Source of the DNA: Halosolutus amylolyticus
Lineage (GTDB): Archaea > Halobacteriota > Halobacteria > Halobacteriales > Natrialbaceae
NCBI RefSeq assembly: GCF_023566055.1
Contig: NZ_JALIQP010000001.1
Location: 610,059-642,058, forward strand
Length of the DNA stretch: 32,000 nt
Direction of reading: 5' to 3'
Made by a program: the position numbers and the translations under genes. The notes beneath the pieces were generated by a model that worked only from the letters and a program-made list of their open reading frames with translations, was not told where the DNA came from and did not search any database. This document shows, one piece after another, positions 16,564 through 32,000 of this stretch (its first letter is position 1; each line of letters starts with the position of its first letter).

Positions 16564-17911
16564 GCTCACCGCTGACGACCTCGTCGACGCTACTACCGAA
16601 GAGTTACTCACCTATCTTCGGACCGGCGCGTTAAACACGCAAGCGCTCACCCACTCCCTCAATTACGAAGGCCTCGATATCGAGGACTGGGATCGCCTCA
16701 AACGCATCCACTTCTGCCTCACTGACGACGTTCACAACTTCATTACTGCACTCCCAGACCGCGTCCGGCGCATCAAAACCGAACACCAGCGCGAACACCT
16801 CCAAACCCGCGGTGAAATTCGCGGCTCAATCAACTGGGGCTCAACCCTTCGAGTTCAATCCGAAACCGGTTACGCCGACCGTAGCCAATTCGTCTGCAAC
16901 ACTCCCTACACCGAATACGACATCCCCGAAAACCGAGTTCTGAAACGTCTTCTCTGGGAAATCCACCGAACCGTCACGAAAGAACTTCAGAGCATCGAGT
17001 ACGAGTGGCGACGAGAAAACTGGACTGACGACCAACTCACCCAGTTCACACGGTTATACAAACAAAACGTCCACCTCAACCGCATCACTGACGGTCAATC
17101 AATCTCTGTCTCTGGGAAAGACATGAACGCGGCTCGACGATCACGCCTCTCGATTTACTCCGACGCATACGACCTCTACGACAAATACCAACGCCTCCAA
17201 TCCGACACCTTCGACCCAGACATCACCGACCTCCTTGCTGAAACACTCGTCATCCCAACCGAGACACCAACACTATTCGAACTGTTCTGCTGTTTCCGCA
17301 TTATCCGAATACTCGATCGCCGCGTTCCTGGGTTCTCACTTCACCCCATCGACGGGCAAAGCAACGCCCTTGCTCACCTCGAATCAGACGAGACACGCAT
17401 CGAAATCTACCACGACAGCACCGGAAACCTCAGCTTCCATGAACCACTCAACCCAGAACACCGACCGACACACCCTTCGTTCGCCCGCTACCACGATGCC
17501 CTCACCGACTACAGCAACACCCTCGAAACCCTCACCGGCAACTCCCACGACCCCGTCCTCTACAGTGGCCGCCCCGACCTCATCATCGAAATCTACGACA
17601 CCACAGCCGACGATCAACTCGTCTCCGTCCTCCTCGGCGAAATCAAACACTCAAACACGACACAAACCTTCAAACAAGGCCTCGAAGAACTCCTCACATA
17701 CCGCCAATTCGCCAACCATGATGGGTACCTCATCGACGACCCAGACGTCACAGTCACCACCCTCCTCATCACAAACGGCGTCACAACTTCAGGCGAAAGC
17801 AGCACCGTCACCCATCTCGACGGAACGGACCTACTTACTCCGCAATCAGAACAACCCCACGATTGGATCAACTTACTCACCGACCCACTTGCCAACCTCA
17901 ACCAAGCATAG
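16553..17911 (+). CDS. mcrC: McrC-like PD-(D/E)xK nuclease subunit
   Basis: Overlaps the mcrB-like stop by 11 nt. The C-terminal GRPDLIIEIYD...VLLGEIKHS (17576-17647) is a PD...ExK motif. Size and position match McrC. Confidence 0.7.
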   Translation: MTRKLTADDLVDATTEELLTYLRTGALNTQALTHSLNYEGLDIEDWDRLKRIHFCLTDDVHNFITALPDRVRRIKTEHQREHLQTRGEIRGSINWGSTLRVQSETGYADRSQFVCNTPYTEYDIPENRVLKRLLWEIHRTVTKELQSIEYEWRRENWTDDQLTQFTRLYKQNVHLNRITDGQSISVSGKDMNAARRSRLSIYSDAYDLYDKYQRLQSDTFDPDITDLLAETLVIPTETPTLFELFCCFRIIRILDRRVPGFSLHPIDGQSNALAHLESDETRIEIYHDSTGNLSFHEPLNPEHRPTHPSFARYHDALTDYSNTLETLTGNSHDPVLYSGRPDLIIEIYDTTADDQLVSVLLGEIKHSNTTQTFKQGLEELLTYRQFANHDGYLIDDPDVTVTTLLITNGVTTSGESSTVTHLDGTDLLTPQSEQPHDWINLLTDPLANLNQA

Positions 17912-18072: not shown

Positions 18073-18552
18073 ATGAGTGAGGCTACCACAACCTGTGATC
18101 AGTGCGGGATAGAGATACCAACCGAGGAAGAGCAAATCACCATCTACCCAGAGACGTACTGCTTCGACTGTTTCGACGGCGACTGTGCTCGCTGCGGTGT
18201 TGATATTAGCGATGCCGATGATCGAGTACAGAAATTTGATGATTATTTTTGTACAGAATGCGCCGAGCGGTTATGCTACAACTGTGGAAAACACATCGAG
18301 GATTTAGATAATCGGAACGTGATCCGAGGACTCGTTCGTTGTAATCAGTGTAAATGGCATATGCTCGGCAATCTTTGCTGTGGTTGTGGGACAGATATTT
18401 CGAATTCAACTCAAAAAGTGGCTGCGGGAGGGACACACCGATACTGCGCTGATTGTAAGAAAGATTTACCCGATGATGTGGAAATCGAGGAATACCCCTT
18501 CGATTTTGAGTCTCCCAACGACAATAACGAGGAACAAGACGCGCCATTCTGA
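18073..18552 (+). CDS. cysteine-rich protein built of four tandem zinc-ribbon (CxxC...CxxC) repeats with an acidic tail
   Basis: Four units: CDQCGIEI..x..CFDC, CARCGVDI..x..CTEC, CYNCGKHI..x..CNQC, CCGCGTDI..x..CADC. Acidic C-terminus DFESPNDNNEEQD. A/T-richer than the neighbouring genes. Confidence 0.7.
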   Translation: MSEATTTCDQCGIEIPTEEEQITIYPETYCFDCFDGDCARCGVDISDADDRVQKFDDYFCTECAERLCYNCGKHIEDLDNRNVIRGLVRCNQCKWHMLGNLCCGCGTDISNSTQKVAAGGTHRYCADCKKDLPDDVEIEEYPFDFESPNDNNEEQDAPF

Positions 18553-18685: not shown

Positions 18686-19672
18686 CTACACCCACGCGAG
18701 TGACGCGTTGTGCTGCGCAAGGTACTCCGGATTCAGGATCTTATTTCGAAGCGGGACTCGTTCACCGTCTTGCTCGATAATCGTTCGCTGTAACAACTCG
18801 CTTTGCGTCTTGAACGACGGATTTACGTGCAGTCGGTAGTCTCGATCGATCGTGAACAGGCCACGGTCGAACGCAGCGTGATGCGTCTTACTCAGCGGGA
18901 GTACGTTCATCAAATCCGCCCTGTACTCCGGGTAGTCACTCCACGATAATACGTGAGCCACGTCCAACAACCCAGGGTGATCAACACCCGAGATCGGGCA
19001 TTCTTGGTCATGACGCGAAATCACCGTCGCACGGAACTCAGGATCAACCGCACGAGCGTGAATCGTCGTCGCGTACGTCCCAGCACTCATTACCTCGTCG
19101 TCCATTGACGGCGCCCAGTCTGAATCACCCCATTCCGCAACAGCGTTCTCGACGAACGACCGGCCTTCATTCGTCAACATGAACGCGTCGCCTCGCTCCT
19201 CGACGAGCCCCATGCTCCGCAACCAATTCACTCGCTGACGAGCCATATCCGTCTCCCCACGACTCCACCCTAACTCCGGATGCGTATCCAACTGCTGGTC
19301 ACTCACCTCCCCAAGCGTCATCGGCCCAGCCGACAACGCATACAGCAGACTCCGAAGCCCAACATTCCGATCACACATAATGCGAAGCAACGTCCCCACA
19401 TCACCCTGCTCAATGTACTCACGGCCAGGATCACCGAGTCCCCAATGGTCGTTCGTCTGGCGGAGGAACCCGACCTGCTGTAAATAACTCACCCGGCGCA
19501 TAATCGAGTCCCGACTCGACACGTTCTGGAATGAACCACGATGCCACCCTACGAGTTCATCCGTCGTCGGGTGATGCGCCGCCACGAACTCAAGCACCGC
19601 ATCCAACGTCTCAACATACCGCGTCCTACCACCGAACATCGGGACAATACTACGCAGACGATTCGGAGCCAT
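18686..19672 (-). CDS. HNH (HNH_2-type) endonuclease with tandem N-terminal winged-helix domains
   Basis: The C-terminus CPISGVDHPGLLDVAHVLSWSDYPEYRADLMNVLPLSKTHHAAFDRGLFTID fits the HNH_2 pattern (aaHI.p...NgL.L...H..FD.g). The N-terminus contains an internal duplication (RRVSYLQQVGFLRQTNDHWGLGDPGREYIE / QRVNWLRSMGLVEERGDAFMLTNEGRSFVE). Confidence 0.85.
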   Translation of the reverse strand: MAPNRLRSIVPMFGGRTRYVETLDAVLEFVAAHHPTTDELVGWHRGSFQNVSSRDSIMRRVSYLQQVGFLRQTNDHWGLGDPGREYIEQGDVGTLLRIMCDRNVGLRSLLYALSAGPMTLGEVSDQQLDTHPELGWSRGETDMARQRVNWLRSMGLVEERGDAFMLTNEGRSFVENAVAEWGDSDWAPSMDDEVMSAGTYATTIHARAVDPEFRATVISRHDQECPISGVDHPGLLDVAHVLSWSDYPEYRADLMNVLPLSKTHHAAFDRGLFTIDRDYRLHVNPSFKTQSELLQRTIIEQDGERVPLRNKILNPEYLAQHNASLAWV

Positions 19673-19898: not shown

Positions 19899-22373
19899 TT
19901 AGTCTGTGACTTGGGATTGCAAACCGCCAAGCCGCCGGTCTTCTAACCGGTTCCGCATATCTCGTTTTACGAGCTCTTCGATATCGTCTTTAACAGTTTC
20001 AAATTCATCAGGTTGTGTCGAGAACGCGAGCGAATCCAATGTGTCTGCGATGAGATCTGCCTTTCGGGAAGCAACATTTTGATAATTCCAGTAATGGTTG
20101 AAATACTTCTCAACCTCGCTGAGGTTAGCTTCGTTCGATTCGTCAGTCGTAAAGTCAATCTCAGATGACTGGAGCTTTTCCAGTTTTCTTCTATCCAAAT
20201 CACCATCTGCAGTAAGATGTTTATTAGCTCCAATCTCACGAAAATCGTCATCTAAGTAACGGTAGAGTTTCCGAGAGAAGAGACGATTTTGAATCGATGT
20301 ATTGATATCTTCGCGGAGGAGAATCACATTCCCCAGATCGCGGACAAACCGGTCCTGAATACCGGAAATGATATCTTCCGCTCGTTGCGCAGCCTGACTA
20401 TCATCATTCAGATTGATAGCGTCTAACTGTTCAAGTTCTACAACTTGGTTCGCAATCTGAGTGTCAACGTCATCAGTTTTGAAGAACAATTTTAGCCACG
20501 CATAAGGGTCATAGGCATCCTCACGAAGCATATTCACTGGAAGTACGTGTTCTAAATGAATACTATCTACATTCAGTTCAACAGAGATTGAGGATGCACC
20601 ACTTTGCTCGTAGTGCATCTCTGAGGAGAGTTTCCAAAGCAAATTCTTCAGGTTCTTGTTCCCCCACTCAGTTTTTTGTACAAGCGTTGTTACGAACCCT
20701 GATCCAAACATTTGTGGTGCCGCTTCACGGGCCTCTCGGACCATGAAGTTCTCTAAATCAGAGGCAGAAAATTCATCCTCGTCTTCAAGCCGCCGAAATT
20801 CATGTGTTGCCTTGACATATAGTGGCTCAACGGTATTTGCTGGCGTCTCGACGAACACCCGTCGAAAGCTAATATTCTCAACAGCTCGCATGACTTTGAG
20901 CAATAGTTGGTTCCCACCCGGAGATTGGTCTACAGACTGGTAGACATATGTAACGAGCGGACGCCACTGAATCGTTCGAAGACCATCTAATCGAGCAAGT
21001 ATCTCTTCACATTCTCGCTTGATGCCACTGATATCTGATTGCGCACTCGTGAGTTCGCCACGTTTGATATCTAAATAGTACCGTTTGAAGGTCCCAATTT
21101 CCGTTAAAAGCTCTCTCGCTTCATCAGCGGTCTCCATCCGTGGGTCCGCGCCAGATTCACCGTCTTTCGTCCGGAACACGTCAAGCAATGCTTTGTTCAC
21201 ATCAGAGAGTTTCGAGATAGACTCATCAGTAGCAGCAATAAAATACGTCAGGAACCGCTTGATCTCTCGGCTATCAGCGCCAAAGGACTTGATTACGTCT
21301 TCCCAGATCTCAGTGTACTTATCAGCATCAACTTCCCCAGCAAACCGATTGAGAATTCGCGCTCGAATTAGGTCTATTTCGGCTAAATCTAGACCCTTAT
21401 CATTGAGCGACTCGAAAATATTCATCCGGAGTGTCGCCTCTTCTGACTCAATTGAACAAAGTGAGATCACAAATGACCGAAGAACGTAATTCTTGAGATT
21501 AATTAACAGGATAACTTGTCGTTCTTGATCGTTAATATCCTCTAAAAGAGCATCGAGATGGTTATCAAAGAAATTGTAGGCGTGAATGAGCCGCTTGTGC
21601 GATTCGGCGAAATAAATATATTCATTCTGTTCAGCGTCTTCAAATTCACTTTTAAGAGACGAATCTCCAATTCTATCAATTAGCTCACCTACCTGAATAG
21701 CCTCTTTGAAACGTGCGTCGTATTTTCCCCGATCCATCTCTTGTCTGTCTTCAAGATACTCCTGTCGGCGAGCCGGTTGTAGGAGGAATTTATTATAGAA
21801 GTCAGTGTCGTGTTTATTGAGTCGAATTGATGTTGTTGTAGCTGTAAATTCCCCAGTATCATACAGTACGTCTTTCAGTTGGTCAAGTGTGCTATTGACG
21901 AACGAAGCTAAATCCGGATATAGATCATCCGCTCGTTCTTCCAATTTTTGTTTAAGAACAAACAGGAATATTGAGGTGGTTGTCAGTCTCTGTTGTCCAT
22001 CGATGATTTCAAGCCGTGATCCACTCCCATCTTCGGCAATATAGATGCTACCAAAATACAGTCCAAAAACTTGCTCCCCCGACTGTTCTGCCGGCATATG
22101 AACGAAATCTGTAATGACTTCCCAGAATTCTTTGATCTGTTTATGTTTCCACGAATAAAGTCGCTGATACGGCGGAACGGCAAAATGATTATCAAGTAAA
22201 ACTTCATGTAAATCCTTCCGATCAATTTCCATTTTATCCTTGATTGACTCGCCAAAGGCAGAGAGGTTCCCAAATGGAATTTCGCTATCAAACCGTAGGT
22301 CATCGGATCCGCCTGCTGATTCGTCTAAATACGCAATCACCCGAGAGGAAGCGATATTGGACGGGTCAGTCAT
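19899..22373 (-). CDS. GmrSD-family (DUF262 + DUF1524) type IV restriction-like nuclease
   Basis: N-terminal DUF262 motifs AVPPYQRLYSWKHKQIKEFW and IIDGQQRLTT (21978-22001). C-terminal DUF1524/HNH-like motifs IHLEHVLP and GNVILLREDINTSIQNRLFSRK. The track start at 22481 is GTG and adds 36 non-acidic residues, so I prefer the ATG at 22373 (MTDPSNIASS). Confidence 0.85.
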   Translation of the reverse strand: MTDPSNIASSRVIAYLDESAGGSDDLRFDSEIPFGNLSAFGESIKDKMEIDRKDLHEVLLDNHFAVPPYQRLYSWKHKQIKEFWEVITDFVHMPAEQSGEQVFGLYFGSIYIAEDGSGSRLEIIDGQQRLTTTSIFLFVLKQKLEERADDLYPDLASFVNSTLDQLKDVLYDTGEFTATTTSIRLNKHDTDFYNKFLLQPARRQEYLEDRQEMDRGKYDARFKEAIQVGELIDRIGDSSLKSEFEDAEQNEYIYFAESHKRLIHAYNFFDNHLDALLEDINDQERQVILLINLKNYVLRSFVISLCSIESEEATLRMNIFESLNDKGLDLAEIDLIRARILNRFAGEVDADKYTEIWEDVIKSFGADSREIKRFLTYFIAATDESISKLSDVNKALLDVFRTKDGESGADPRMETADEARELLTEIGTFKRYYLDIKRGELTSAQSDISGIKRECEEILARLDGLRTIQWRPLVTYVYQSVDQSPGGNQLLLKVMRAVENISFRRVFVETPANTVEPLYVKATHEFRRLEDEDEFSASDLENFMVREAREAAPQMFGSGFVTTLVQKTEWGNKNLKNLLWKLSSEMHYEQSGASSISVELNVDSIHLEHVLPVNMLREDAYDPYAWLKLFFKTDDVDTQIANQVVELEQLDAINLNDDSQAAQRAEDIISGIQDRFVRDLGNVILLREDINTSIQNRLFSRKLYRYLDDDFREIGANKHLTADGDLDRRKLEKLQSSEIDFTTDESNEANLSEVEKYFNHYWNYQNVASRKADLIADTLDSLAFSTQPDEFETVKDDIEELVKRDMRNRLEDRRLGGLQSQVTD

Positions 22374-22687
22374 ATTGATGAATGCTACTGATGTTGGCAG
22401 CTGTTTAATTATTCTGCTTTGTAAAGTGGAGCCGAATGTAAATAAGCTAGAATAAAACGTTCTGTCAATATTTCTTCGCACTACTTCCCGTCACATCGAT
22501 CTGTAATCATTTAGCCTATACAAACAGAACAGGCGTGTCGTACTCGCCGTGATTTGTGTTGTCTCCACCCGAACATATACCGAGACCCGTTCCCGAATGG
22601 CTGGTTCTGCCTACCTAAGGAATCATTATAATTTTGATTTTGTAAGTTGATCTCCTATTAAGGTAAATCATCAAGAAATATATTTTC

Positions 22688-24874
22688 TCACCAAGTTAGT
22701 AAAGCTATAGGAGGCAACATCTCATGAAGACTAATTCCACCATGGACATATCGATCATCGTCACTGCTATTTGTTAGAATGGTCCGATGTTTTGCGAAAA
22801 TGAAATCTTCATCAGGTAGCCGATAGTCCTCGCTTGCACTATCCATTGCTAAGTGGCATCCTTTCGGTTTCTCCCACGGACCACCACGGGCATATCTTGT
22901 ACCTGATTTGTATGCATCGTAGTTGCTCACTCGGCGTTCATCATCTGCTCTGGTAGCTCCATGGTCACTAATGAGTATGATAGCACCTTCGTCAGATGGA
23001 TCCAATTCTGGAATTTGTGTGATTTGATGGGCTATATTGTCTTTGAAGAATTGGATTGGAATCTGTCGGAAAGATCGGTCTCCTTGAAGCTGTGAAGTTA
23101 TACTTGACTGACCGCCAAAGTTGTGAGTCAGCTTATCTGAGAAGTGGTAGATGAGCGATTTGAGCCGTGCCTCCGATTTCATGATCCTTTCTGCTTTCCG
23201 TCTCTTGCTGGATACACCAGCCGGGTTCTGATATTTTAAATCGTCTCCGTGTAGTCCAGTGGAATCACGGAACCAGTCCTCTTCATCTGCATTCCCTACG
23301 TTGTACAGGTATTTCCCGTACTCATGCTCAAGTTCCCTTGGGGACTTCCCGGTCAATAGAGTATTGCGGGCGTACGGTGTTGCCGTCGGAAGAATCGAGA
23401 CGTAGGGGTGATCTTCAACTATAGAGAAGGTGTCATTGAGGGTTTCTCTAATACCTAGCCAATGATCAAACCGGAGACCATCAAAGACAATTACATAGAC
23501 TGTGGGGTAGTCTTCGACTGCCTCCAGAATATATTCGTCTAAGATATCCCAGCTGAGTGTGACATTTGAATCGTGGATCCACGAGAGGTAGTGGTCATCG
23601 ACTGCGTCACAGAAGCTCTGGTCGGTCCTCTGCCACAGGTCTTCGAACTTCCAGACCAGTTCTTGGCGGTTGATCTCGTCGACGATGTGGCCTAGTTCGG
23701 AGAGGTCTTGGAAAATGTCCAACCAGTGGTTGGCATCAGAGATCTCACTGTCTATTTCTTCGTTGATGCTGGCGAAGCGGTTGATGAAGTCAATTGCCTT
23801 GGACAGATTATCGACATCGTGATTTGCTGCCTGAAGTTCTGTAAAGACAGTCTCGTGGCTGGTTTCCACTTCCTGTGCTTCTACTATAGAATCAACAGTT
23901 TGAGAGGAAATTGATGAAGCCGCGGTAGGCAAAAGAAATCCGGTTGCTGCTTCTGAGGGTGAGGAGTTCCCTGCACGTGTCTGAAGGGTTTCTCTATTGA
24001 TGTCCCTGTCTGCTTGATTGATTTGATCTTGGAAACGGTCTGGGTCGAGTTCTAAGGCAAGGCCGAGAATTTCACTATAGTCTTCATCAGGTGGTGACTC
24101 AAGTAGTGCGTCAACCCAATCAAGGTCCTGACCAAGCGAGTTCAAGCACCGGACAGTCCAGACGGCATTAGCAAATCTTCTACGCTCCTCATCAGACGAT
24201 AGAACTGGAGCAAATTCCGCTACCTTCGGCAAACGAGATTTTGCTTCAGCCTCAAGAACATCCTGAACCGTGATTTTAAGATCTGTATCATCGAAATCAG
24301 ATGTCTCGAAGATCCCTTTCTCTGTAGCCAGATTATATTGATCATTGACATTAACCGGGTTCCGGAAATCCACCTCTGAGGCATAGTATAACAGCAGTTC
24401 GATGGTCTCTTCTCTATCAAACCGTCCAGTAATCCCGTTCCATTTACAAAACGAGATAAAGTCCTCTATCTGTTCCGAGAGATAGTTGTCAGCAACTGCG
24501 TCAAGGATCAGCGGAAACTCTACTTCACGCAGAAGATCTGTCGGAGTAAGTTCGACGGGTGCAGAGATACCCTGTTCGTCAAGGATATCTCCCAACTCTG
24601 CTGTGAGCTGTTCGCTATCCCATGTGGAGAGAGCGATGACCATTGGTTGCCCCGTTTCCCGTGAGGATTCATATTCCTCTCGAAAATCTAGGTAGCGGTA
24701 GCGGTCGTATGTGATTATCTCGTACTCATAGTGATCAGTTCCAATCTCCTCATGATCAAGTTCATCCAGCAGACCATACTGGTCATCGATAAGAACAACA
24801 GGAGAGGCTCTATCAGAGAGAAACCCCGTAACTAACTCCTGAAATGTATCTGTCTTAGCTGAAGCCATGTTCAC
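22688..24874 (-). CDS. pglZ: PglZ-domain alkaline-phosphatase-superfamily protein (BREX core)
   Basis: VYVIVFDGLRFDHW, AIILISDHGAT and RYVHGGISLHEMLPPIALL lie in the C-terminal half, with a roughly 450-aa N-terminal domain as in BREX PglZ. The start is GTG at 24874 (GTGA overlap with the brxC stop) or ATG at 24868. Confidence 0.85.
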   Translation of the reverse strand: MNMASAKTDTFQELVTGFLSDRASPVVLIDDQYGLLDELDHEEIGTDHYEYEIITYDRYRYLDFREEYESSRETGQPMVIALSTWDSEQLTAELGDILDEQGISAPVELTPTDLLREVEFPLILDAVADNYLSEQIEDFISFCKWNGITGRFDREETIELLLYYASEVDFRNPVNVNDQYNLATEKGIFETSDFDDTDLKITVQDVLEAEAKSRLPKVAEFAPVLSSDEERRRFANAVWTVRCLNSLGQDLDWVDALLESPPDEDYSEILGLALELDPDRFQDQINQADRDINRETLQTRAGNSSPSEAATGFLLPTAASSISSQTVDSIVEAQEVETSHETVFTELQAANHDVDNLSKAIDFINRFASINEEIDSEISDANHWLDIFQDLSELGHIVDEINRQELVWKFEDLWQRTDQSFCDAVDDHYLSWIHDSNVTLSWDILDEYILEAVEDYPTVYVIVFDGLRFDHWLGIRETLNDTFSIVEDHPYVSILPTATPYARNTLLTGKSPRELEHEYGKYLYNVGNADEEDWFRDSTGLHGDDLKYQNPAGVSSKRRKAERIMKSEARLKSLIYHFSDKLTHNFGGQSSITSQLQGDRSFRQIPIQFFKDNIAHQITQIPELDPSDEGAIILISDHGATRADDERRVSNYDAYKSGTRYARGGPWEKPKGCHLAMDSASEDYRLPDEDFIFAKHRTILTNSSDDDRYVHGGISLHEMLPPIALLTW

Positions 24875-27800
24875 TGACTCACTTCCTGCTTCACAACCTG
24901 TTTCTCAGAATCCTCACCCTCCAGATGGACTCGTGCCATGATGTTCTCAGCCGACACCGACTGCTTCTTTTCGTCGATCTCCCGTTGGATGGCCTCTTGT
25001 AGTTGCTCAATCTTTCCGTCAAGCTCGCCTGGAGCAACTGGCTCATCGAACATCTCTGTAGACACGTGGACGTCGATAACCGCGGTATTAAGCTCTTCAA
25101 TGACCTCGTCAATTTGGCCGACTAGCCCTGACCGGTCATGAGAAGACATACTAGCGACCTCTGAGGCATCTGCAGATAGGAAGTCCTCTAGCCACTCTGC
25201 CTCGATACTGGGGTCCTCTTCCGCTTCTTCCAACACGTCCTGCAAACTCGACAACGCCCTCTCAAGATAGCTATCAGGCTTTAAGCTGCTGATATCCGGC
25301 TTGTCGAAGGTATCTCCCAGTTCAAATCCGCAACTACAGGTCAGGTTCACGCCCTGAAGCTGCGAACTCACTTCCCTGTTACAGGGCTGTCCTACATCTA
25401 ACTCTTCTAACTGCTGGCGTAGAGCGGACGCGAGTTCGTTATCCGCAAAGTTGTAATCGACCTTGTTCAGGTCTTGTAGCGCCTTGAACGAGTCCGAGGT
25501 TAGCCGGGTTTCAATCTCTGTATTAACCTCTTCTACCTTGTCGTAGTAGTCATGGTGGGCTTGGCGGTACCGTTTCGTATACTGATCCTCGAACTCCTCG
25601 ACAGTAGATTGAAGATTCCCGGCTGCAACCTCATTTCTGATGACCTTGGGGAAGTCAAGATTATCGCGGACCTCCTGAACATACGAGTCCAAAGAGTCAT
25701 CAGGCCAGTCTTGGAGAGCCTGGCTAGCTCGGGTGACAATGTTTTCATAGTCACTGAGGAAGACGGACAGGGAATCAAAAGTATCTACAGCATCTTCGAA
25801 GTCATCGACACTTCCGCATGTATCGATAACCGTGTCGTACACCTTCTCCAAGTTACCGCCAGCACTGGTTGCATTGTAATCGGCGGTGATGACGGTCTTG
25901 AGGTCTTCAAGATCGGACGTGAGCGTGGGATCTTCCTCCACTTCCGACATCAGGCGTTCATATCGGTTAATTCGGTCATCGATGTCGTCAGTTAAATCCT
26001 CGAAACGGTCTTGGAGAGAGGTCCAAACAGCGTTGTAGTTCTCCTGTTTGCGTTCTCGGCTGACATCCTCCGATAGAACGATATCTGCTATGTTTACGAT
26101 ATTAGTCCAGTTATCAGGAGCAGTCGGCGTCCTGATCGTCTCTATCTGCTTCCCGAGGTCATTATTCGTGAACTGGGCATCCTCAATGTTGGTGCTGGAG
26201 ACGACACCGCCCTCAATGATATTGCCAGTCACGGTTGCTTCTAACTTACTCTCCTTCACCAGTGAGAGGACGTAGATCGCAATGATTCGGGAGCTTAGGC
26301 CGATTGGCTGTGTCCGCAGCTCATTGTGGATTCGCTGGATAGGAAGACTGTCATCGTCATCTTCCGTCTCCTCCTTCAGAAGCTCAATGATCTTGTCCGT
26401 GTACTGATTGTCTGAAAGATCGAGTTCCTGTGGATTCCTTTGGGTGGTAATCTTGAGGCCTTGAGCAAAGTTGTTCGCTGCGCTCTCATACCGGGAATCC
26501 ATGGAGGTCGTTATCTTCCCGTATTTGACGATGCCCTCCAAGATTTTGTTCGTCTGCTTGTCTTCCCAGACGTTGTTCGAGGGGAAGGTGAGCTCGTTTT
26601 CGTTGTAAGTCCGGTTTAGAGGCTCTTGTACGATTTCTTGGACGTTGTTCTCAAGGCTTTGCTGGAAGGTGAAGTCGATGTCCGATAGTTCTGCAGAGAA
26701 GGCGTTTCCTTGGCGGAAGCAGTCCTTGATTATGCTTGGAAGCTCCGTCTCCACATCTTCTAACTGGCTTGCCGCCATTTCGCGTTTCTCGCTGGCATGG
26801 GGAGCATCGCTTCGCTCGTAGTCAGTAACAAGCTCAGTTAGTGCCTCGTATTCTTGGAGTTTGTTCACTTGGCGGTCGGACAGATCACGGGGGAGCCATG
26901 CGACGACACGTTCATCGTCTGCAGTGTCGAGAAGATCTTCGACATCGTCCCTAGCATCAGGGTCAGGGCGTTCTTGCACGTAGAGCCAGAACCGTTGGTC
27001 TTCGAAGTCGTCAGGTGTATTGACGCTTTTCCACCCGGTCAGATCTGCGATTGTGAGCTCCCCATCGACCTTGATATTCGTTTTCGTCCACGTGACGCTG
27101 AGGCTCTTGTCTTGGTCGACGTCTTGGAAGAGACCATACTCACCTAGTACATCTGCGAAAATGTCCCTGGCGTTGTCCTTGTCTTTCTCTCCGATTTTCT
27201 GGTTCTTGTCCTCCTGGATTGTGATTTCTTCTTCGACTTGGAACTCGTACGTACCGTTGTTACTGACGATGTACGGGACCTGGGTAAGATCCTCAAGGAC
27301 CTCTTCGTAGTAGATAACGTTCCCTTCAGGATCCTCTACCACTTCTCTCATCAGCGAGTTTGCTACACCGTGAGGCGTGATGCCTCGCTTGGAGATCGCA
27401 TTGAGGAAGAGGACCTTGATCACGTTGTTGGCAAACTCTTGATCCTCTATGGAGGGCAGATAATCTTCGACAGTTCTCTGGTAGTTCGAGTAGAGCTGAG
27501 GATGATGGGTTTTTAGGGAGTTAGTAGTTGTATCGCCGTATTCAGCGCCGAACTCATCGAAGAGGTAGTCGGGAGTGATGAGAGTTTGCTCCTTGGCGTG
27601 GTGCTGAACGGCACTGTGTAGTGCCTTGATCCCTGTTCTGTTGGTGTTATCGAAGGAGCTTGCCCGGTTAGCTAGTTCAAGGGTTTGCGGTGTGAATGGG
27701 AAGATCTCCTTGAAGTCCCCTATACGGGCATCGTCTACCCAGTCAAACCGGTCAGCAAAGTAGGAGTAGTACTCCTCGACGTATCGCTCGTTCTTACACT

Positions 27801-28773
27801 CCTTTATAACACGGTTGACAGCTATCTCTTGGAACTCGCGTTTCGTCCGGGTGAGAGTGAGGTTGTGTAGCCGGTCCTCGGCAATCAGCTTCCCACGTTG
27901 ACTGGTAACCCTCTCATTCTGCTCTAATGACTGCTGGGCAGCCATCACCATGGTAAACGGGAACTCGTCTTTGAGATCAGCTAGCGAGAAGAGAACGTCT
28001 TCGTCGTTCTTTGCCTCATCACCCCGTCGATTGAGGAACTCAGATATCTCGTCAACGATATAGAAGATGTGATCGAACTCCTCAAGAATCTCATCTAAGG
28101 CCAGTTCGAAAGAAGTTCTAAAGTCCTCGTCGACATCCAGGGAGATGCTTTCCTCTCGAAGCCAGGTGCGGATAGCACCCACGAACATCTCCTTGTCCGT
28201 ATTTTCCCAGGCCTCTTCGTCCCATGTACCGCCAGACTTCTCCAGGTAGTCGAAGAACGCTCGCTTATCCAGAGAAGCATCCTCGAAAGCATCGATGAGC
28301 CGGTCGTCCCGGCTTACAGGAAGCTCATTGCCAGTGGCCTCCAGGTATGCATCTTTCGTCTGCTCAATGATGTTTCTGTGCAGACTTTCTTGTACGTCTC
28401 CTCCTCCAGCTAAACTGAAGGGGATGACGAGTACATCTTTCTCAGAAATTGGGCTTCCGAGACTGACGAGCGAGTCCCGTTCAAGGTATTCGTAGGCTTC
28501 CGGAGTGTGAAGCCGGAAGAGACTGTAGAGGCTTGCGAGGACGTGGCTTTTACCGCTTCCGAACTCGCCCTGAAGCCAGAATGTCCCGCCTTGATCGTCG
28601 GGGATTCCAGAGAGTATTTTGACGAGATGTTTTTCGAGTTCGTCTGTGACGATGAAGTTGTCCAGAATATCATCTGGATCTTCTTCGGCGTGTTGAAGGT
28701 CGATTGCTCCACGAATCTTGTCGGGAAACGTGATTACCTCGTCGAGAGGTTTGAGTTGATCTCTGGATGTCAT
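24871..28773 (-). CDS. brxC: BrxC/PglY-like large P-loop ATPase (BREX core)
   Basis: 1300 aa. The N-terminal FWLQGEFGSGKSHVLASLYSLF is the DUF499/BrxC-type Walker A context. Positioned directly upstream of pglZ and downstream of two small genes. ATGA overlap with the upstream stop. Confidence 0.8.
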   Translation of the reverse strand: MTSRDQLKPLDEVITFPDKIRGAIDLQHAEEDPDDILDNFIVTDELEKHLVKILSGIPDDQGGTFWLQGEFGSGKSHVLASLYSLFRLHTPEAYEYLERDSLVSLGSPISEKDVLVIPFSLAGGGDVQESLHRNIIEQTKDAYLEATGNELPVSRDDRLIDAFEDASLDKRAFFDYLEKSGGTWDEEAWENTDKEMFVGAIRTWLREESISLDVDEDFRTSFELALDEILEEFDHIFYIVDEISEFLNRRGDEAKNDEDVLFSLADLKDEFPFTMVMAAQQSLEQNERVTSQRGKLIAEDRLHNLTLTRTKREFQEIAVNRVIKECKNERYVEEYYSYFADRFDWVDDARIGDFKEIFPFTPQTLELANRASSFDNTNRTGIKALHSAVQHHAKEQTLITPDYLFDEFGAEYGDTTTNSLKTHHPQLYSNYQRTVEDYLPSIEDQEFANNVIKVLFLNAISKRGITPHGVANSLMREVVEDPEGNVIYYEEVLEDLTQVPYIVSNNGTYEFQVEEEITIQEDKNQKIGEKDKDNARDIFADVLGEYGLFQDVDQDKSLSVTWTKTNIKVDGELTIADLTGWKSVNTPDDFEDQRFWLYVQERPDPDARDDVEDLLDTADDERVVAWLPRDLSDRQVNKLQEYEALTELVTDYERSDAPHASEKREMAASQLEDVETELPSIIKDCFRQGNAFSAELSDIDFTFQQSLENNVQEIVQEPLNRTYNENELTFPSNNVWEDKQTNKILEGIVKYGKITTSMDSRYESAANNFAQGLKITTQRNPQELDLSDNQYTDKIIELLKEETEDDDDSLPIQRIHNELRTQPIGLSSRIIAIYVLSLVKESKLEATVTGNIIEGGVVSSTNIEDAQFTNNDLGKQIETIRTPTAPDNWTNIVNIADIVLSEDVSRERKQENYNAVWTSLQDRFEDLTDDIDDRINRYERLMSEVEEDPTLTSDLEDLKTVITADYNATSAGGNLEKVYDTVIDTCGSVDDFEDAVDTFDSLSVFLSDYENIVTRASQALQDWPDDSLDSYVQEVRDNLDFPKVIRNEVAAGNLQSTVEEFEDQYTKRYRQAHHDYYDKVEEVNTEIETRLTSDSFKALQDLNKVDYNFADNELASALRQQLEELDVGQPCNREVSSQLQGVNLTCSCGFELGDTFDKPDISSLKPDSYLERALSSLQDVLEEAEEDPSIEAEWLEDFLSADASEVASMSSHDRSGLVGQIDEVIEELNTAVIDVHVSTEMFDEPVAPGELDGKIEQLQEAIQREIDEKKQSVSAENIMARVHLEGEDSEKQVVKQEVSQ

Positions 28774-29291
28774 TTTTTAACCTGGATAACTGTGGTGAAC
28801 GGCGTAGTCTCTAATTCTTTACCATTTACGTATATGTGCTGTCCTTCAACCGTGGCGTCGGCCAGCACAACTGCCTTCTTCTCGTTCTGCGCGATCCTCT
28901 GAACTGCAGGAATCAAATCGAAGTCATATCGAAGCGCGACCTCAAACCTCTCTAACATTACGAGAGAGGCAGGTTCAAACTGTTCTTGGAGAATAGACTC
29001 AGTGGCATCAGAGATCCTCTGACGGATATGCTTAGGTTCGCCAGTAGTTCGTTCTGCCATCACCAACTGCTCGTAATCTTCTTGCTTCGTCACCAACTCA
29101 CTAACGGATTTATTCAAATTGACAACTGGGAACCCATGTGCGTCCGCTATCTGACCCTTGACTGCTTTGTCAAGAAGATCGCGCTCTCCAACAATCAACC
29201 AGACTTCTTTCCCACCGTCGCCTTCAGCGTGGCTCTCCAGAGCATCAGCGAGTTCCGGCAACCGCATCTCGTAATTTGAGAGCTCGGTCAT
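28770..29291 (-). CDS. brxB: BrxB-like (DUF1788-like) small protein
   Basis: 173 aa, immediately upstream of and overlapping brxC, which is the canonical brxB position. Loose resemblance to the DUF1788 layout (KEVWLIVGERD...GFPVVNLNKSVSELV early, a hydrophobic VVLADATVEG strand late). The assignment rests mainly on context and size. Confidence 0.5.
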   Translation of the reverse strand: MTELSNYEMRLPELADALESHAEGDGGKEVWLIVGERDLLDKAVKGQIADAHGFPVVNLNKSVSELVTKQEDYEQLVMAERTTGEPKHIRQRISDATESILQEQFEPASLVMLERFEVALRYDFDLIPAVQRIAQNEKKAVVLADATVEGQHIYVNGKELETTPFTTVIQVKK

Positions 29292-29298
29292 GGTCTAC

Positions 29299-30090
29299 TC
29301 ACGTGGAAACCCCGTTTTCTGCACCGGACTCAGAGAGTCCAGCCAGCTCCGAGCTGATGTCCTCTGGATTATACCGTAACTTCACTTGCTCCATATCACT
29401 GATAAACGAATACTCCCACACGTCGGCATTCCACCCATCATAGATGAATTCCTGCAGGGCCTCATCATCGAACAGGCCTGCACGCCTGGTTAGTGAATTC
29501 TGAATATCCTCAACGAAGTACATCTGAGGGTCACCCAACTCGTGGTGGAGAGAATACACAAAAGCCGGTAAGGAACGATTCCCTGTAAGAAGATACCTGT
29601 CTTCATCTCCATCCGCCTTCTCGATAAGATTGAACTGAGTGAAGCACCGGAGGATATCCTTCGTAGTTCTCTCCTCGTTCCCTACCTCTTTAGTCTCGAA
29701 GAAGTTCTCTAACTCTGACTTCGTAATCGAATTGACATCGTTGAGCTTTGGTGCAAAGAACTCTTCGAGAACCGTGGATAGAACCTTGTTGGACAAAGCG
29801 TAGTGATAGAAAATCGCAGACCTGAGTGAGTCATCCGAGAGATTCTTCGCAGACCCTACGAGAGGAGTACTAAGAGGGTCCTCGTTTGCCTCATCGAAGT
29901 AGGGATCGTCGACGAACAACCGCTTAGCGAGAATAGCGGCGTACCGCTTTCGAACCTGCTTGCTATTCTGTGGAAGCAGATCTTCCACAACATGCTGCTT
30001 CAACGCCTCCAGCGAGTCAAACTCAGAAGCCTCTCGAACAACTTGGATCGCTTCGTCAGCCAGAACCACACTGATATCTTTTCCTTCCAT
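29299..30090 (-). CDS. brxA: BrxA-like (DUF1819-like) protein
   Basis: 263 aa, 7 nt upstream of the brxB-like gene. SKQVRKRYAAILAKRLF and LRSAIFYHYALSNKVLSTVLEEFFAPKL...ITKSELENFF...TKDILRCFTQFNLIE resemble the helical DUF1819 pattern. The assignment is partly contextual. Confidence 0.5.
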   Translation of the reverse strand: MEGKDISVVLADEAIQVVREASEFDSLEALKQHVVEDLLPQNSKQVRKRYAAILAKRLFVDDPYFDEANEDPLSTPLVGSAKNLSDDSLRSAIFYHYALSNKVLSTVLEEFFAPKLNDVNSITKSELENFFETKEVGNEERTTKDILRCFTQFNLIEKADGDEDRYLLTGNRSLPAFVYSLHHELGDPQMYFVEDIQNSLTRRAGLFDDEALQEFIYDGWNADVWEYSFISDMEQVKLRYNPEDISSELAGLSESGAENGVST

Positions 30091-30095
30091 GTGTA

Positions 30096-32000
30096 CTACT
30101 CCTGGTCAATGTCCCCTAACGTAGATTGTGCCGGATCGATCTCGGGATCGCTTTCCTCATCGCCTCCGTCTGTCTTTTCGGCCTTGGCCTCGCTGATCCG
30201 GCGACGTCGACGGATGTTACTCTGTACGTCATCAGGTAGTTCCTCGATGTCGATGTAGTCGTAGAGGAGAAGTGCGTCTCGGTGACGGTCCTCGTCTTGG
30301 AGATACCGGATACCGTACTCCAAGACGTGTAGTGGAGGTGCCTCTTCGATGTGTTCGTTGTTTTCGAGCTTGGAGACAAACTGGTCGACGGCATGTTCTT
30401 GATGACCTTCCTGACGTCGCTCGACCTCTAGTTTCTCGTCCTCCGTTTCTGGCAACCGCCACTTCTTACGGTCCTTGATGAAGTTCCGCTCAAGCAGTTC
30501 ATCGAAGTTCTCCGGTTGCTGATCGACCTCGTTGGTGACAACCTCGTAGAGGTCGGAATACGTGGAGCCACCGTTTTCTTCGAGGTATTCTTCGATAGCG
30601 CGTTGGGCAATCAGGTCTGTGGAGAAGTACTCCAGATCGGGGTCGTATTCTTGGTGGTAGTCAGGTGGATGCCACCTGGTCCTGCCACGATCATCGATGT
30701 TCTTCTCGTAGTTCTCCTCCAAGATTGATTCCCAGTCGGGACGGAGATTCAGGGCGTTGTTCTTCTTTAGAGTTTTAATCACTTCATGGAAGACTTGTTC
30801 TGGGAGGACTCCCCGACCGAGATATCCTGAACGGACGACGTTGTCTATCGCTGTCGTGACCCTCTCCATGATGTCTTTCGGTATCTCCTCGGGAGGGGTT
30901 TCGAACTCAGCATCGTCCATAGATTCTGGAAGTTTGAAGTAATTGACAACGGTGTCTCGCCGCTGTGCTTTGTCCTCCTTCATCTGCTTCCAGGATTTCT
31001 GCTTCATGTCCAGAGATAGGCTACCATTGTACGGGGTGAACCCGATGTCAATGATGGCGTTGTTGAACCTCTCCCACATAGCAGGATCACTATTGTTGAA
31101 GGTAATCGTCACCCAGCGACCAGGCTTGAGTTTAGCGTAAATTTCTTCAAAGACCTCATGAATCTCCTCCTCCCATTTGTCCTCATCTTTGTCCTCTCGC
31201 TCACTGCTATCGCTTACGACAATTTCCTTCTGAAAGTCTTCCTCTTCTTCTAACCATGCTGTCCAGAGAAGGTTCACCTCTGCGTATGGAACCGTATCGC
31301 CGTATGGCGGATCTATGAAGACGTAATCAATTGATTCATCAGGAATGTCATTGAGATCCCGGGCGTCATCTGTAAATACTCGGGCGTCACTATCTGGATT
31401 ATAGTCACTCTCAACGAGGTCCTTGAAGTGTTCCCTTGCTTTCCGGACGTAGCGATTATATTTGTTGTCGAAAGAGTTCCAGACATTGATCTCCTTGTTT
31501 TTCGGCGGGATGTAATAGGTCCCCTTCATAATACTCGTGTTTGGCCGGTCTTGAGCCATTTTACTCGTATTAGCGGCTATCCCGGTGAAGGCGAAGAGTA
31601 GGTGTTGTCGAATAGGACCTTCCTCTGTTTCGTTGACAATAGCCTCTCGGAGCTTCGCTAGGGCAAGTAGGTTTCTTTTGCTATATAGGTCACAAACCCT
31701 CATTCCTTCAGAGACGTTGATACGGGAGTTAGGTAGGAGTTCCTTAGTTGGATACCAGTGAGGGTTTTCTTTTTTCTCGATTTCATCAAGGAGATCAACA
31801 TCTTTTTGATCGATATCGCGCTGTTTGTTGCCTCGCCCACCGCAGCTCGGGCAATCTAATGCAACCCCAACAGGGACACGATCAAGAGCTTCCTGAGTAC
31901 CTGGCTTAAATTCGTTATCACAATTCGGGCAGATATATTTCGATGTGTAGTCTTTCTTCTCTATCTCATCTAAATTCAGCTCTGACCCACACCGCTTGCA
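30096..32000 (-). CDS. DNA (adenine/cytosine-N) methyltransferase with DPPY motif and inserted zinc ribbons (COG1743-like); 5' end lies beyond the right window edge
   Basis: The track ORF starts at an internal Met (31703). My translation of 31704-32000 in the same frame is open to the window edge (99 codons): CKRCGSEL..x..CPNCDNEF...DCPSCGGRG...NPHWYPTKELLPNSRINVSEG. Downstream lie LYSKRNLLALAKLREAI, then IDYVFIDPPYGDTVPYAEVNLLWTAWL (DPPY at 31302-31313) and LKPGRWVTITF. The stop is 5 nt before the brxA-like start. Confidence 0.8.
   Translation of the reverse strand, partial: CKRCGSELNLDEIEKKDYTSKYICPNCDNEFKPGTQEALDRVPVGVALDCPSCGGRGNKQRDIDQKDVDLLDEIEKKENPHWYPTKELLPNSRINVSEGMRVCDLYSKRNLLALAKLREAIVNETEEGPIRQHLLFAFTGIAANTSKMAQDRPNTSIMKGTYYIPPKNKEINVWNSFDNKYNRYVRKAREHFKDLVESDYNPDSDARVFTDDARDLNDIPDESIDYVFIDPPYGDTVPYAEVNLLWTAWLEEEEDFQKEIVVSDSSEREDKDEDKWEEEIHEVFEEIYAKLKPGRWVTITFNNSDPAMWERFNNAIIDIGFTPYNGSLSLDMKQKSWKQMKEDKAQRRDTVVNYFKLPESMDDAEFETPPEEIPKDIMERVTTAIDNVVRSGYLGRGVLPEQVFHEVIKTLKKNNALNLRPDWESILEENYEKNIDDRGRTRWHPPDYHQEYDPDLEYFSTDLIAQRAIEEYLEENGGSTYSDLYEVVTNEVDQQPENFDELLERNFIKDRKKWRLPETEDEKLEVERRQEGHQEHAVDQFVSKLENNEHIEEAPPLHVLEYGIRYLQDEDRHRDALLLYDYIDIEELPDDVQSNIRRRRRISEAKAEKTDGGDEESDPEIDPAQSTLGDIDQE

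What the first reader, a model, noticed from the sequence alone, without database searches (positions are those of the whole stretch)
22688..32000. BREX-like operon with non-canonical composition: Zn-ribbon DPPY methylase, brxA-like, brxB-like, brxC, pglZ; no PglX, BrxL or helicase in view
Seen in sequence: five co-directional minus-strand genes are joined by 4-nt overlaps or gaps of 5-7 nt (junctions at 30090/30096, 29291/29299, 28770-28773, 24871-24874). The products are (i) a methylase with DPPY preceded by CxxC zinc-ribbon elements, (ii) a 263-aa and (iii) a 173-aa protein in the brxA/brxB positions, (iv) a 1300-aa GEFGSGKSH P-loop protein, and (v) a PglZ protein. Established knowledge: pglZ plus brxC/pglY define BREX. 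The brxA-brxB-brxC order belongs to subtypes (1, 5, 6 of Goldfarb et al. 2015) whose methylase is the large gamma-class PglX, placed between brxC and pglZ and accompanied by BrxL or a helicase. Here brxC abuts pglZ directly. The methylase is of a different class (more like the BREX type 3 PglXI or DISARM DrmMI style) and sits 5' of brxA. No Lon-like or helicase gene follows pglZ. Inference: this is an unclassified or hybrid BREX architecture, possibly a minimal haloarchaeal variant.
Basis: partly seen in the sequence, partly recalled or inferred. Interest (0 to 1): 0.75.

Follow-up and report, generated by a model that had tools for sequence, protein, structure and literature searches.

The report
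Helicase-less haloarchaeal type-3 BREX cassette
This is a real five-gene anti-virus (BREX) operon of a salt-loving archaeon, a rare and very divergent relative of "type 3" BREX that has a different gene order and no helicase gene, so it could serve as a natural minimal version for finding out which BREX parts actually stop viruses.

Summary
Five tightly packed minus-strand genes (22688 to beyond 32000) encode a methylase, a 263-aa protein, a 173-aa protein, BrxC and PglZ. The window comes from Halosolutus amylolyticus.

All five parts belong to the BREX type-3 lineage, so this is not a hybrid.
- The methylase is PglXI-type, with two nested Cys4 zinc ribbons in its target-recognition insert.
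- The 263-aa protein is BrxA.
- The 173-aa protein is BrxF, the type-3 inactive P-loop counterpart of BrxB. It is not DUF1788.
- BrxC is of the DUF6079 type.
- PglZ aligns over its full length with BREX-3 PglZ.

The canonical order is brxF-brxC-pglXI-brxHII-pglZ-brxA. Here it is pglXI-brxA-brxF-brxC-pglZ, with no BrxHII or BrxL.

The same order occurs in every related locus that shows the whole cassette, in two clades. Flanks vary, and DNA similarity ends exactly at the PglZ stop codon. Four genes are under strong purifying selection, while the methylase recognition region is hypervariable. The family is tiny: two 50%-identity clusters among 1.84 billion representatives.

Caveats: a GmrSD nuclease follows pglZ, and the closest relatives carry an AddAB-like helicase-nuclease pair just upstream of the methylase, which lies beyond this window's edge.

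Verdict: a new variant of a known kind, of moderate interest.

The parts
30096..32000 (-). pglXI-type N6-adenine DNA methyltransferase. This is the C-terminal 634 aa; about 170 N-terminal residues lie beyond the window edge.
   Evidence: The frame is open to base 32000. PADLOC PglXI scores 4.7e-54. The full-length orthologue in L002 (803 aa) scores PglXI 1.1e-85 and Pfam N6_N4_Mtase. It is 26% identical over 543 aa to the methylase of a canonical BREX-3 locus.
31572..32000 (-). Hypervariable target-recognition insert of the methylase, with nested Cys4 zinc ribbons (CKRC, CPNC and CPSC in view; the outermost CxxC lies beyond the edge).
   Evidence: Motif coordinates are and the orthologue alignment. 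Nucleotide similarity to otherwise 87-90%-identical loci is lost from about 31572. Amino-acid identity here is 46-72%, against 89-97% in the other four proteins.
31302..31313 (-). DPPY catalytic motif IV of the methylase.
29299..30090 (-). brxA-like gene (263 aa), predicted DNA-binding protein.
   Evidence: All 12 of 12 family members hit Pfam BrxA (best E 1.4e-5; the window copy scores 1.6e-3, below the curated cutoff). In the AF2 model residues 1-180 are confident, and its top PDB match is 3bhw_A (prob 1.00, TM 0.61, E-value only 0.066). From my own knowledge 3BHW is the DUF1819/BrxA-family structure. NCBI's annotation pipeline names the Halorarius orthologue 'BrxA family protein'.
28770..29291 (-). 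brxF-like gene (173 aa): an inactive P-loop (iSTAND) protein, the type-3 counterpart of BrxB.
   Evidence: 9 of 11 family members hit NCBIfam NF033453 BREX_3_BrxF (best E 1.8e-4). hhalign against Roseicitreum BrxF gives P = 3e-4, collinear over residues 30-155 versus 19-131. The Walker A position reads GERDLLDK instead of GPPNSGKS. There are no Pfam or PADLOC hits, and the AF2 model is poor (pLDDT 61).
24871..28773 (-). brxC (1300 aa): AAA+ ATPase with Walker A GEFGSGKSH (28543-28569) and Walker B YIVDEISE (28039-28062).
   Evidence: PADLOC BrxC scores 1.9e-21 and NCBIfam PglY 2.9e-12. The orthologues carry precomputed Pfam BrxC-PglY_N and PglY_4th hits and PADLOC BrxC hits to the C-terminal part. 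No hit to a DUF499-type family was listed in any scan.
22688..24874 (-). pglZ (728 aa, or 726 aa from the ATG at 24868), with an alkaline-phosphatase-fold domain at about residues 360-726 and a BREX-3-like N-terminal region.
   Evidence: Pfam PglZ scores 1.6e-9. NCBIfam gives PorX 4e-44 and BREX_PglZ_3 5e-19, both below their curated cutoffs. hhalign of the family against BREX-3 PglZs aligns residues 11-727 with 6-679 at E = 1.5e-41. The metal-site motifs are invariant in the family.
22482..22687 (.). AT-rich spacer that marks the downstream boundary of the conserved cassette.
   Evidence: Nucleotide similarity to L002, L011, L012, L013 and L014 stops at 22687/22688, the PglZ stop codon. Sequence read.
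19899..22481 (-). GmrSD-family type IV restriction nuclease (860 aa). It is an accessory neighbour and not part of the conserved cassette.
   Evidence: Pfam GmrSD_N scores 8e-29 and GmrSD_C 1e-7. It is absent at this position in all other loci. GmrSD next to BREX is a known pattern (PMC12839542).

Best explanation
This is a self-contained five-gene BREX operon of the type-3 lineage (pglXI-brxA-brxF-brxC-pglZ). It is carried in a defence island of Halosolutus amylolyticus and on related haloarchaeal plasmids and elements.

Shown:
- The identity of the five proteins.
- The fixed gene order.
- The absence of a helicase or Lon-like gene.
- The exact downstream boundary of the cassette.
- Purifying selection on four of the genes.
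- A hypervariable target-recognition region in the methylase.

Inferred, by analogy with type-1 BREX and the BREX-related MANTIS system:
- PglXI methylates one strand of a short asymmetric motif, read by its zinc-ribbon insert, and so marks host DNA.
- BrxC, an ORC/Cdc6-like AAA+ ATPase, forms a core complex with the inactive P-loop protein BrxF and with PglZ. These three genes are contiguous and translationally coupled here. The complex loads and licenses the methylase on DNA.
- On unmethylated incoming DNA the same complex switches to restriction, with the metal-dependent PglZ phosphodiesterase/nuclease as effector. BrxA acts as a DNA-binding modulator.
- No dedicated motor is needed, or one is borrowed from elsewhere in the cell.
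- Exchange of the recognition region changes the specificity of both modification and restriction.
For: Component identities:
- Methylase.
- BrxA.
- BrxF.
- BrxC.
- PglZ.

Canonical type-3 order for comparison: the Roseicitreum plasmid has brxF, DUF6079, (an RNA-binding-domain gene), methylase, helicase, pglZ, then a 242-aa gene.

Same order without a helicase in L001, L002/L006, L003, L004, L005, L011, L012, L013, L017, L018, L019 and L020. These form two clades at about 40% PglZ identity, with at least six different downstream contexts.

Cassette boundary at the PglZ stop codon.

Selection: dN/dS is 0.04-0.12 for brxA, brxF, brxC and pglZ. The PglZ metal-site residues and the BrxC Walker motifs are invariant.

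Mechanistic analogies from the literature:
- BrxB, BrxC and PglZ form a core complex (PMC13326643).
- In MANTIS an AAA+ ATPase plus a small co-factor load the PglXI-like methylase (10.64898/2026.09.23.753747).
Against: - No function has been tested for any type-3 BREX. Types III-VI were uncharacterised as of April 2026.
- In type 1, BrxL is generally needed for restriction but not for methylation. A cassette without the equivalent gene could therefore be competent for methylation only.
- The BrxF and BrxA assignments rest on weak, though consistent, scores. The window's own 173-aa copy gave no BrxF hit on its own (part A). Its AF2 model was too poor for fold matching.
- All type-3 NCBIfam models score far below their curated cutoffs.
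- The methylase N-terminus, the promoter and the upstream neighbours of this particular genome were not visible.
Confidence: 0.7

Rival explanations
1. The cassette is incomplete on its own. The missing motor or nuclease is supplied by a linked but separately transcribed module, most plausibly the AddAB-like UvrD-helicase/PD-(D/E)XK pair encoded divergently just upstream of the methylase. This pair would process DNA that the BREX complex has marked or nicked.
For: - An intact AddA-like (1226 aa; UvrD plus PDDEXK_1) and AddB-like (1062 aa; PDDEXK_1) pair abuts the methylase, divergently, on the Halorarius plasmid. An 86%-identical AddB-like gene is at the same place in L011.
- A 226-aa remnant, 31% identical to the AddB-like N-terminus, occupies the same position in the distant Halorubrum sp. 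SP9 locus. This suggests an old linkage.
- A second, unrelated AddAB-like set lies downstream in L004, L005 and L018.
Against: - The pair is absent from the L012/L013 clade and from upstream of L004/L005 and L020.
- In SP9 it has decayed while the cassette is intact.
- It is transcribed from the other strand.
- Defence islands often place helicase-nucleases next to each other by chance.
- This window ends before the region in question.
Confidence: 0.15
2. The cassette is a modification-only remnant of type-3 BREX. After loss of the helicase it only methylates DNA, for example to protect its plasmid or element from other systems or for an epigenetic role, and it does not restrict.
For: - In type-1 BREX, host methylation needs only a subset of the proteins, while restriction generally needs all of them (PMC13326643). 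From my own knowledge that subset is PglX, BrxB, BrxC and PglZ, which matches what is kept here.
- The cassette sits among stand-alone nucleases (GmrSD, HNH, McrBC) that attack modified DNA.
Against: - PglZ nuclease activity is dispensable for methylation in type 1 (PMC12205998). Yet every metal-site residue of PglZ is invariant across both clades, and pglZ has dN/dS 0.09.
- BrxA is also retained.
- The recognition region diversifies quickly, as expected under pressure from viruses.
- The cassette is kept intact in at least six different genomic contexts.
Confidence: 0.12
3. The methylase belongs to a separate restriction-modification unit that merely sits next to a brxA-brxF-brxC-pglZ module.
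For: The nearest plasmid-borne relatives of the methylase core (about 30% identity) sit in ordinary non-BREX methylase contexts.
Against: - The methylase is joined to brxA by a gap of 0-9 nt in most loci (5 nt in the window), and by at most about 100 nt in the Halorubrum-type metagenome loci. It is present in every locus of both clades that reaches that far.
- Its best profile is the BREX PglXI model (286 bits).
- No cognate endonuclease gene is conserved beside it.
Confidence: 0.03

Closest known systems
BREX type 3 (Goldfarb et al. 2015; re-analysed in PMC12839542). Example: Roseicitreum antarcticum plasmid pRA04, locus L008.
   Same: - A PglXI methylase with a TRD insert carrying Cys4 zinc fingers.
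- BrxF, an inactive P-loop protein.
- BrxA.
- A DUF6079-type BrxC.
- A PglZ that is collinear over its full length with BREX-3 PglZ.
   Different: - There is no BrxHII helicase.
- The gene order is pglXI-brxA-brxF-brxC-pglZ instead of brxF-brxC-pglXI-brxHII-pglZ-brxA.
- Sequences are very divergent (26% identity for the methylase; BrxA and BrxF are undetectable by BLAST). All curated type-3 models score below their cutoffs.
- The recognition insert has two nested zinc ribbons instead of one.
- The family is known only from haloarchaea.
BREX type 1 (brxA-brxB-brxC-pglX-pglZ-brxL)
   Same: - The local order A, B-like, C is the same.
- The B-like gene, brxC and pglZ form a linked core. These are the proteins that form a complex in type 1.
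- Self-marking is presumably by hemimethylation.
   Different: - The methylase is of another class (alpha-like PglXI rather than gamma-class PglX) and sits first in the operon.
- There is no BrxL.
- The 173-aa protein does not match DUF1788.
- The PglZ domain is closer to PorX and BREX-3 than to type-1 PglZ. No solved BREX PglZ chain appeared at E <= 1.
Type-3 BREX-related (BR) systems of Rakesh and Krishnan 2026 (DUF499 ATPase, methylase, BrxHII-like helicase, stand-alone PglZ, iSTAND)
   Same: - The methylase is of the same broad family. A subset of BR-3 methylases also has two Cys4 fingers.
- PglZ and an inactive STAND protein are present.
- The group is frequent in archaea.
   Different: - The ATPase here is BrxC/DUF6079-like and not DUF499.
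- PglZ carries a roughly 350-aa BREX-3-like N-terminal region and is not a stand-alone domain.
- BrxA is present.
- The helicase is absent.
MANTIS / Gao_RL (BR type 2; 10.64898/2026.09.23.753747)
   Same: An AAA+ ATPase plus a small accessory protein load a PglXI-related methylase for hemimethylation. This is the best experimental analogue for the modification half of the system.
   Different: The MANTIS effector is a helicase-PLD nuclease (MtsD). It has no PglZ, BrxA or BrxF.
BrxU / GmrSD next to BREX (E. fergusonii pEFER type)
   Same: A GmrSD type IV nuclease directly follows the BREX operon in the window.
   Different: Here it is a variable neighbour, present only in this locus.

Membership tests
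BREX superfamily | Co-encoded PglZ (alkaline-phosphatase fold) and BrxC/PglY AAA+ ATPase | tested here: met
   Pfam PglZ scores 1.6e-9, above the curated cutoff. PADLOC BrxC scores 1.9e-21. The two genes are adjacent and overlapping.
BREX type 3 | PglXI methylase (PF01555 core split by a TRD insert with a Cys4 zinc finger) | tested here: met
   PADLOC PglXI scores 4.7e-54 for the fragment and 1.1e-85 for the full-length orthologue. N6_N4_Mtase is hit. Motif I lies N-terminal of the insert and DPPY C-terminal of it, and CxxC pairs lie in the insert.
BREX type 3 | BrxF (small P-loop/iSTAND protein) | tested here: met
   9 of 11 family members hit NF033453 BREX_3_BrxF (best E 1.8e-4). hhalign against a PGAP-named BrxF gives P = 3e-4. 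The scores are weak, the window copy alone gives no hit, and the structure test was inconclusive.
BREX type 3 | BrxA homologue | tested here: met
   12 of 12 members hit Pfam BrxA. The top structural match is 3bhw_A. There is no sequence similarity to the Roseicitreum gene in the brxA position.
BREX type 3 | Type-3 PglZ | tested here: inconclusive
   Profile-profile comparison gives a full-length match at E = 1.5e-41. However, NCBIfam BREX_PglZ_3 scores 68 bits against a cutoff of 250, and PorX scores higher over the catalytic domain.
BREX type 3 | BrxHII Swi2/Snf2 helicase in the locus | tested here: not met
   No helicase lies in or next to the operon in the window or in any related locus. 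The literature reports BrxHII in 77% of type-3 loci.
BREX type 3 | Gene order brxF-brxC-pglXI-brxHII-pglZ-brxA | tested here: not met
   The order here is pglXI-brxA-brxF-brxC-pglZ in all loci. The canonical order was seen in L008.
BREX types 1, 5 and 6 | PglX gamma-class methylase between brxC and pglZ, BrxB (DUF1788), and BrxL or a helicase | tested here: not met
   There is no PglX, DUF1788, BrxL or Lon-like hit in the Pfam, PADLOC or NCBIfam scans. brxC abuts pglZ.
BR type 3 (DUF499-centred) | DUF499 ATPase, stand-alone PglZ and a BrxHII-like helicase | tested here: not met
   The ATPase hits BrxC/PglY models only. PglZ has a BREX-3-like N-terminal region. There is no helicase.
BREX-related capture (BRC) system | HerA/FtsK translocase universally present, TGT/GNAT components, and no methylase | tested here: not met
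   A methylase is present. The HerA at 2326-4002 belongs to the Mre11-Rad50-NurA-HerA operon. A convergent HerA-like gene occurs only in the L012-L014 clade.
BREX type 4 | BrxP PAPS reductase and BrxL in place of a methylase | tested here: not met
   No such hits.
BREX (functional definition) | Site-specific hemimethylation of host DNA and exclusion of unmethylated virus DNA | not testable with these tools
   This needs methylome sequencing and infection or transformation assays.

The most novel reading that the evidence does not exclude
The five genes are a complete, naturally minimal BREX. Methylation-guided defence would work with PglZ as the only dedicated effector and with no BrxL- or BrxHII-type motor. 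That would show which BREX proteins are sufficient for exclusion. An alternative reading is that the system has swapped the BREX helicase for an AddAB-like helicase-nuclease in an archaeon.
Probability: 0.3. Interest if true: 0.65.

Novelty: new variant of a known kind. Interest (0 to 1): 0.45.

Why it matters
How BREX stops viruses is still unresolved, and no type-3 system has been tested experimentally.

This lineage keeps the methylase, BrxA, the BrxB-like protein, BrxC and PglZ under strong purifying selection, but it has dispensed with the helicase or Lon-like component. It is therefore a ready-made natural experiment on whether that component is needed for exclusion, and on whether PglZ is the effector.

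It sits in genetically tractable haloarchaea, where a type-5 BREX has just been shown to work. Sister loci with different recognition regions would allow specificity-swap experiments.

It also shows that curated type-3 models miss this family. NCBI's annotation leaves BrxC and BrxF as 'hypothetical protein'.

Tried and rejected
- Exact look-ups of window proteins failed, so the sequence to the right of base 32000 could not be read.
- The single genome-contig scan, with a BrxC alignment, returned only one locus because the derived peptide patterns were too specific. The metagenome scan added six loci, all in the same two clades. The viral scan found none.
- A profile search of the 173-aa family against PDB sequences found nothing.
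- hhalign of BrxA against the Roseicitreum gene in the brxA position found nothing. hhalign of BrxC against a single canonical BrxC gave only a weak N-terminal match.
- The supplementary locus lists of PMC12839542 are not held as text. I therefore could not check whether these accessions were already counted there as type 3.
- I considered and rejected BR type 3, BRC, BREX types 1/5/6 and 4, DISARM-like, and a separate R-M unit. The reasons for all but DISARM-like are in the membership table and the rival explanations.
- MADS was considered because of weak PADLOC mad2 and mad8 hits, but these are far weaker than the PglXI and BrxC hits.

Full report
**Observation.** The ORF list shows five co-directional minus-strand genes, at 22688-24874, 24871-28773, 28770-29291 and 29299-30090, plus one ending at 30096. 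The methylase frame is open to base 32000. By comparison with an 803-aa orthologue it lacks about 170 N-terminal residues. PglZ may instead start at the ATG at 24868, which would leave a 2-nt spacer. The products are very acidic (pI 4.2-4.8). The PglZ protein is 100% identical to WP_250138966.1 of the haloarchaeon Halosolutus amylolyticus.

**Identity of the methylase.** The methylase fragment matches the PADLOC PglXI model at 4.7e-54. Full-length orthologues match at 1.1e-85 and 9.7e-75. They carry Pfam N6_N4_Mtase. The L002 orthologue is 26% identical over 543 residues to the methylase of a canonical BREX-3 locus. Motif I (LDGCSGSG) lies N-terminal of a large insert and DPPY lies C-terminal of it. 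The insert holds two nested CxxC...CxxC zinc ribbons. This matches the published description of the type-3 methylase, except that one Cys4 finger is the rule there (PMC12839542).

**Identity of BrxA and BrxF.**
- All 12 members of the 263-aa family hit Pfam BrxA (best E 1.4e-5). The confident N-terminal 180 residues of its AF2 model have 3bhw_A as their top PDB match (prob 1.00, TM 0.61, E-value only 0.066). From my own knowledge 3BHW is the DUF1819/BrxA-family structure. NCBI's pipeline calls the Halorarius orthologue a BrxA family protein.
- The 173-aa protein has no Pfam or PADLOC hit. However, 9 of 11 family members hit NCBIfam BREX_3_BrxF (best E 1.8e-4). A profile of the family aligns collinearly with a PGAP-named BrxF (P = 3e-4). 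The strand-1/Walker A and Walker B positions are in register, and the Walker A is eroded. It is therefore the type-3 inactive P-loop counterpart of BrxB and not DUF1788.

**Identity of BrxC and PglZ.**
- BrxC matches PADLOC BrxC (1.9e-21) and NCBIfam PglY. Its orthologues carry BrxC-PglY_N, PglY_4th and C-terminal BrxC hits. No hit to a DUF499-type family was listed in any scan.
- The PglZ catalytic domain is closest to PorX-type proteins. Even so, a family profile aligns over its full length (residues 11-727 against 6-679, E = 1.5e-41) with a set of BREX-3-type PglZ proteins, N-terminal region included. That set consists of one PGAP-named BREX-3 PglZ plus six sub-cutoff relatives, three of which were checked against the BREX-3 model.

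**Architecture.**
- A canonical type-3 locus (Roseicitreum plasmid) reads brxF, brxC, (an inserted gene), methylase, helicase, pglZ, then a brxA-position gene.
- The order here is pglXI-brxA-brxF-brxC-pglZ. It is identical in all related loci that span the cassette: L001, L002/L006, L003, L004, L005, L011, L012, L013, L017, L018, L019 and L020.
- These loci form two clades. One is Halosolutus/Halorarius-like, at 74-96% protein identity. The other is Halorubrum-like, at 39-52%.
- None has a helicase or Lon-like gene in the operon.
- Nucleotide similarity between the window and five other loci ends exactly at the PglZ stop codon. What follows differs from locus to locus:
  - GmrSD and HNH in the window.
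  - A metallophosphoesterase in L002.
  - DUF8139 in L001 and L011.
  - A convergent HerA-like gene in L012-L014.
  - A DUF4143 ATPase followed by an AddAB-like set in L004/L005.
- The five genes are thus a discrete, mobile unit.

**Selection and diversification.**
- Between the window and the 90%-identical Halorarius locus, dN/dS is 0.12 for brxA, 0.04 for brxF, 0.08 for brxC and 0.09 for pglZ.
- The BrxC Walker motifs and the PglZ metal-site motifs (DGLR, PTAT, SDHG, HGG) are invariant.
- The methylase is mosaic. Its recognition insert and flanks are 46-72% identical where the other proteins are 89-97% identical. Nucleotide similarity is lost from about 31572. This is what is expected if specificity is being exchanged under pressure from viruses.

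**Rarity.**
- An exhaustive phmmer search of 1.84 billion cluster representatives found only two full-length relatives of this PglZ. The next hits match the catalytic domain only.
- The word-index searches found 10, 6 and 11 clusters for PglZ, BrxF and BrxA respectively, all from haloarchaea or hypersaline metagenomes.
- The plasmid collection holds one copy, on the Halorarius halobius plasmid.

**Mechanism (inferred).**
- In type 1, BrxB, BrxC and PglZ form a core complex (PMC13326643).
- In the related MANTIS system, an AAA+ ATPase plus a small co-factor load a PglXI-like methylase to hemimethylate asymmetric sites.
- Here brxF, brxC and pglZ are contiguous and translationally coupled. The most likely model is that PglXI marks host DNA once loaded by BrxC-BrxF, and that on unmodified DNA the complex restricts through PglZ.
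- The invariant PglZ active site argues against a modification-only role, but that rival cannot be excluded without experiments.

**The helicase question.**
- A 2026 survey reports BrxHII in 77% of type-3 loci, so helicase-less loci have been counted. No such lineage was described in the parts of that paper I could read, though. No type-3 system has been tested.
- One lead concerns the region just beyond the window. An AddAB-like UvrD/PD-(D/E)XK pair lies divergently and immediately upstream of the methylase in Halorarius and in L011. A decayed 226-aa remnant sits at the same spot in the distant Halorubrum sp. SP9 locus. A different AddAB-like set lies downstream in L004, L005 and L018.
- This pair is absent from other loci. 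I therefore rate it a possible but unproven partner.

**Verdict.** The finding is real. 'brxB-like' should read BrxF, and 'hybrid' should read 'reordered, helicase-less type 3'. It is a new variant of a known kind and of moderate interest, mainly as a natural minimal BREX in a tractable group of organisms.

Noticed in passing
L006 5094-11955 (Halorarius plasmid), L011 3-1958, L001 1372-2052, L004/L005 14401-20799: An AddAB-like helicase-nuclease pair (UvrD plus PDDEXK_1, 1226 aa; PDDEXK_1, 1062 aa) lies divergently and directly upstream of the methylase in two loci. A 226-aa remnant (31% identity) sits at the same position in Halorubrum sp. SP9. A second, unrelated AddAB-like set lies downstream in other loci. 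From my own knowledge, AddAB-type enzymes are unusual in archaea. The window ends before this region.
   Followed up: partly
window 19899-22481 (-) and 18686-19672 (-): A GmrSD-family type IV nuclease (860 aa) and an HNH protein that resembles phosphorothioate-DNA-binding restriction enzymes follow pglZ. Both are absent at this position in all related loci, so they are variable inserts in the island. A 159-aa ORF at 18073-18552 (+) has only a weak DUF1272 hit.
   Followed up: partly
window 13171-17911 (+); L002 17512-22171 (-): An McrBC-like pair lies convergent to the BREX cassette: a 1130-aa EVE plus AAA_5 protein and a 452-aa partner. It is conserved next to the cassette on the Halorarius plasmid too (77% nt identity), with different genes inserted in between.
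   Followed up: partly
window 31572-32000; alignment of the methylases of L002, L011, L012, L017, L001, L003 and L020: The methylase recognition insert is a diversification hot spot. Its amino-acid identity drops to 46-72% in loci whose other four proteins are 89-97% identical. The Halorubrum clade has CxC in place of the last CxxC of the outer zinc ribbon.
   Followed up: yes
L012 2-2135 and 12267-13097; L014 6046-7308: In the clade with 78% PglZ identity, the cassette has a NucS_C-like protein and a metallophosphoesterase upstream and a convergent HerA-like (DUF87) ATPase downstream. Metallophosphoesterases also flank the cassette in L002 and L001.
   Followed up: no
L001 16216-21239; L006 34491-39759: The Halorubrum sp. 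SP9 locus and the Halorarius plasmid locus share a downstream block: a 314-aa gene, a gene of about 100 aa (DUF8156 in L001), a family-B DNA polymerase and Orc1/Cdc6. This suggests the cassette travels on related plasmid-like or integrative elements.
   Followed up: no
window 2326-10177 (-) and 10355-12643 (+): There is an Mre11-Rad50-NurA-HerA repair operon, with strong negative GC skew in Rad50. Next to it is a SocA/Panacea-domain gene followed by two unannotated ORFs. The defence island (about 10000-32000) has G+C of 0.43-0.55, against 0.54-0.60 for the repair operon.
   Followed up: no
NCBI annotation of NZ_CP101162.1 (L006 15581-20004): NCBI's annotation pipeline labels the BrxC and BrxF orthologues 'hypothetical protein'. 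All curated BREX-3 NCBIfam models score far below their cutoffs, so standard annotation may not recognise this family as a BREX system.
   Followed up: partly
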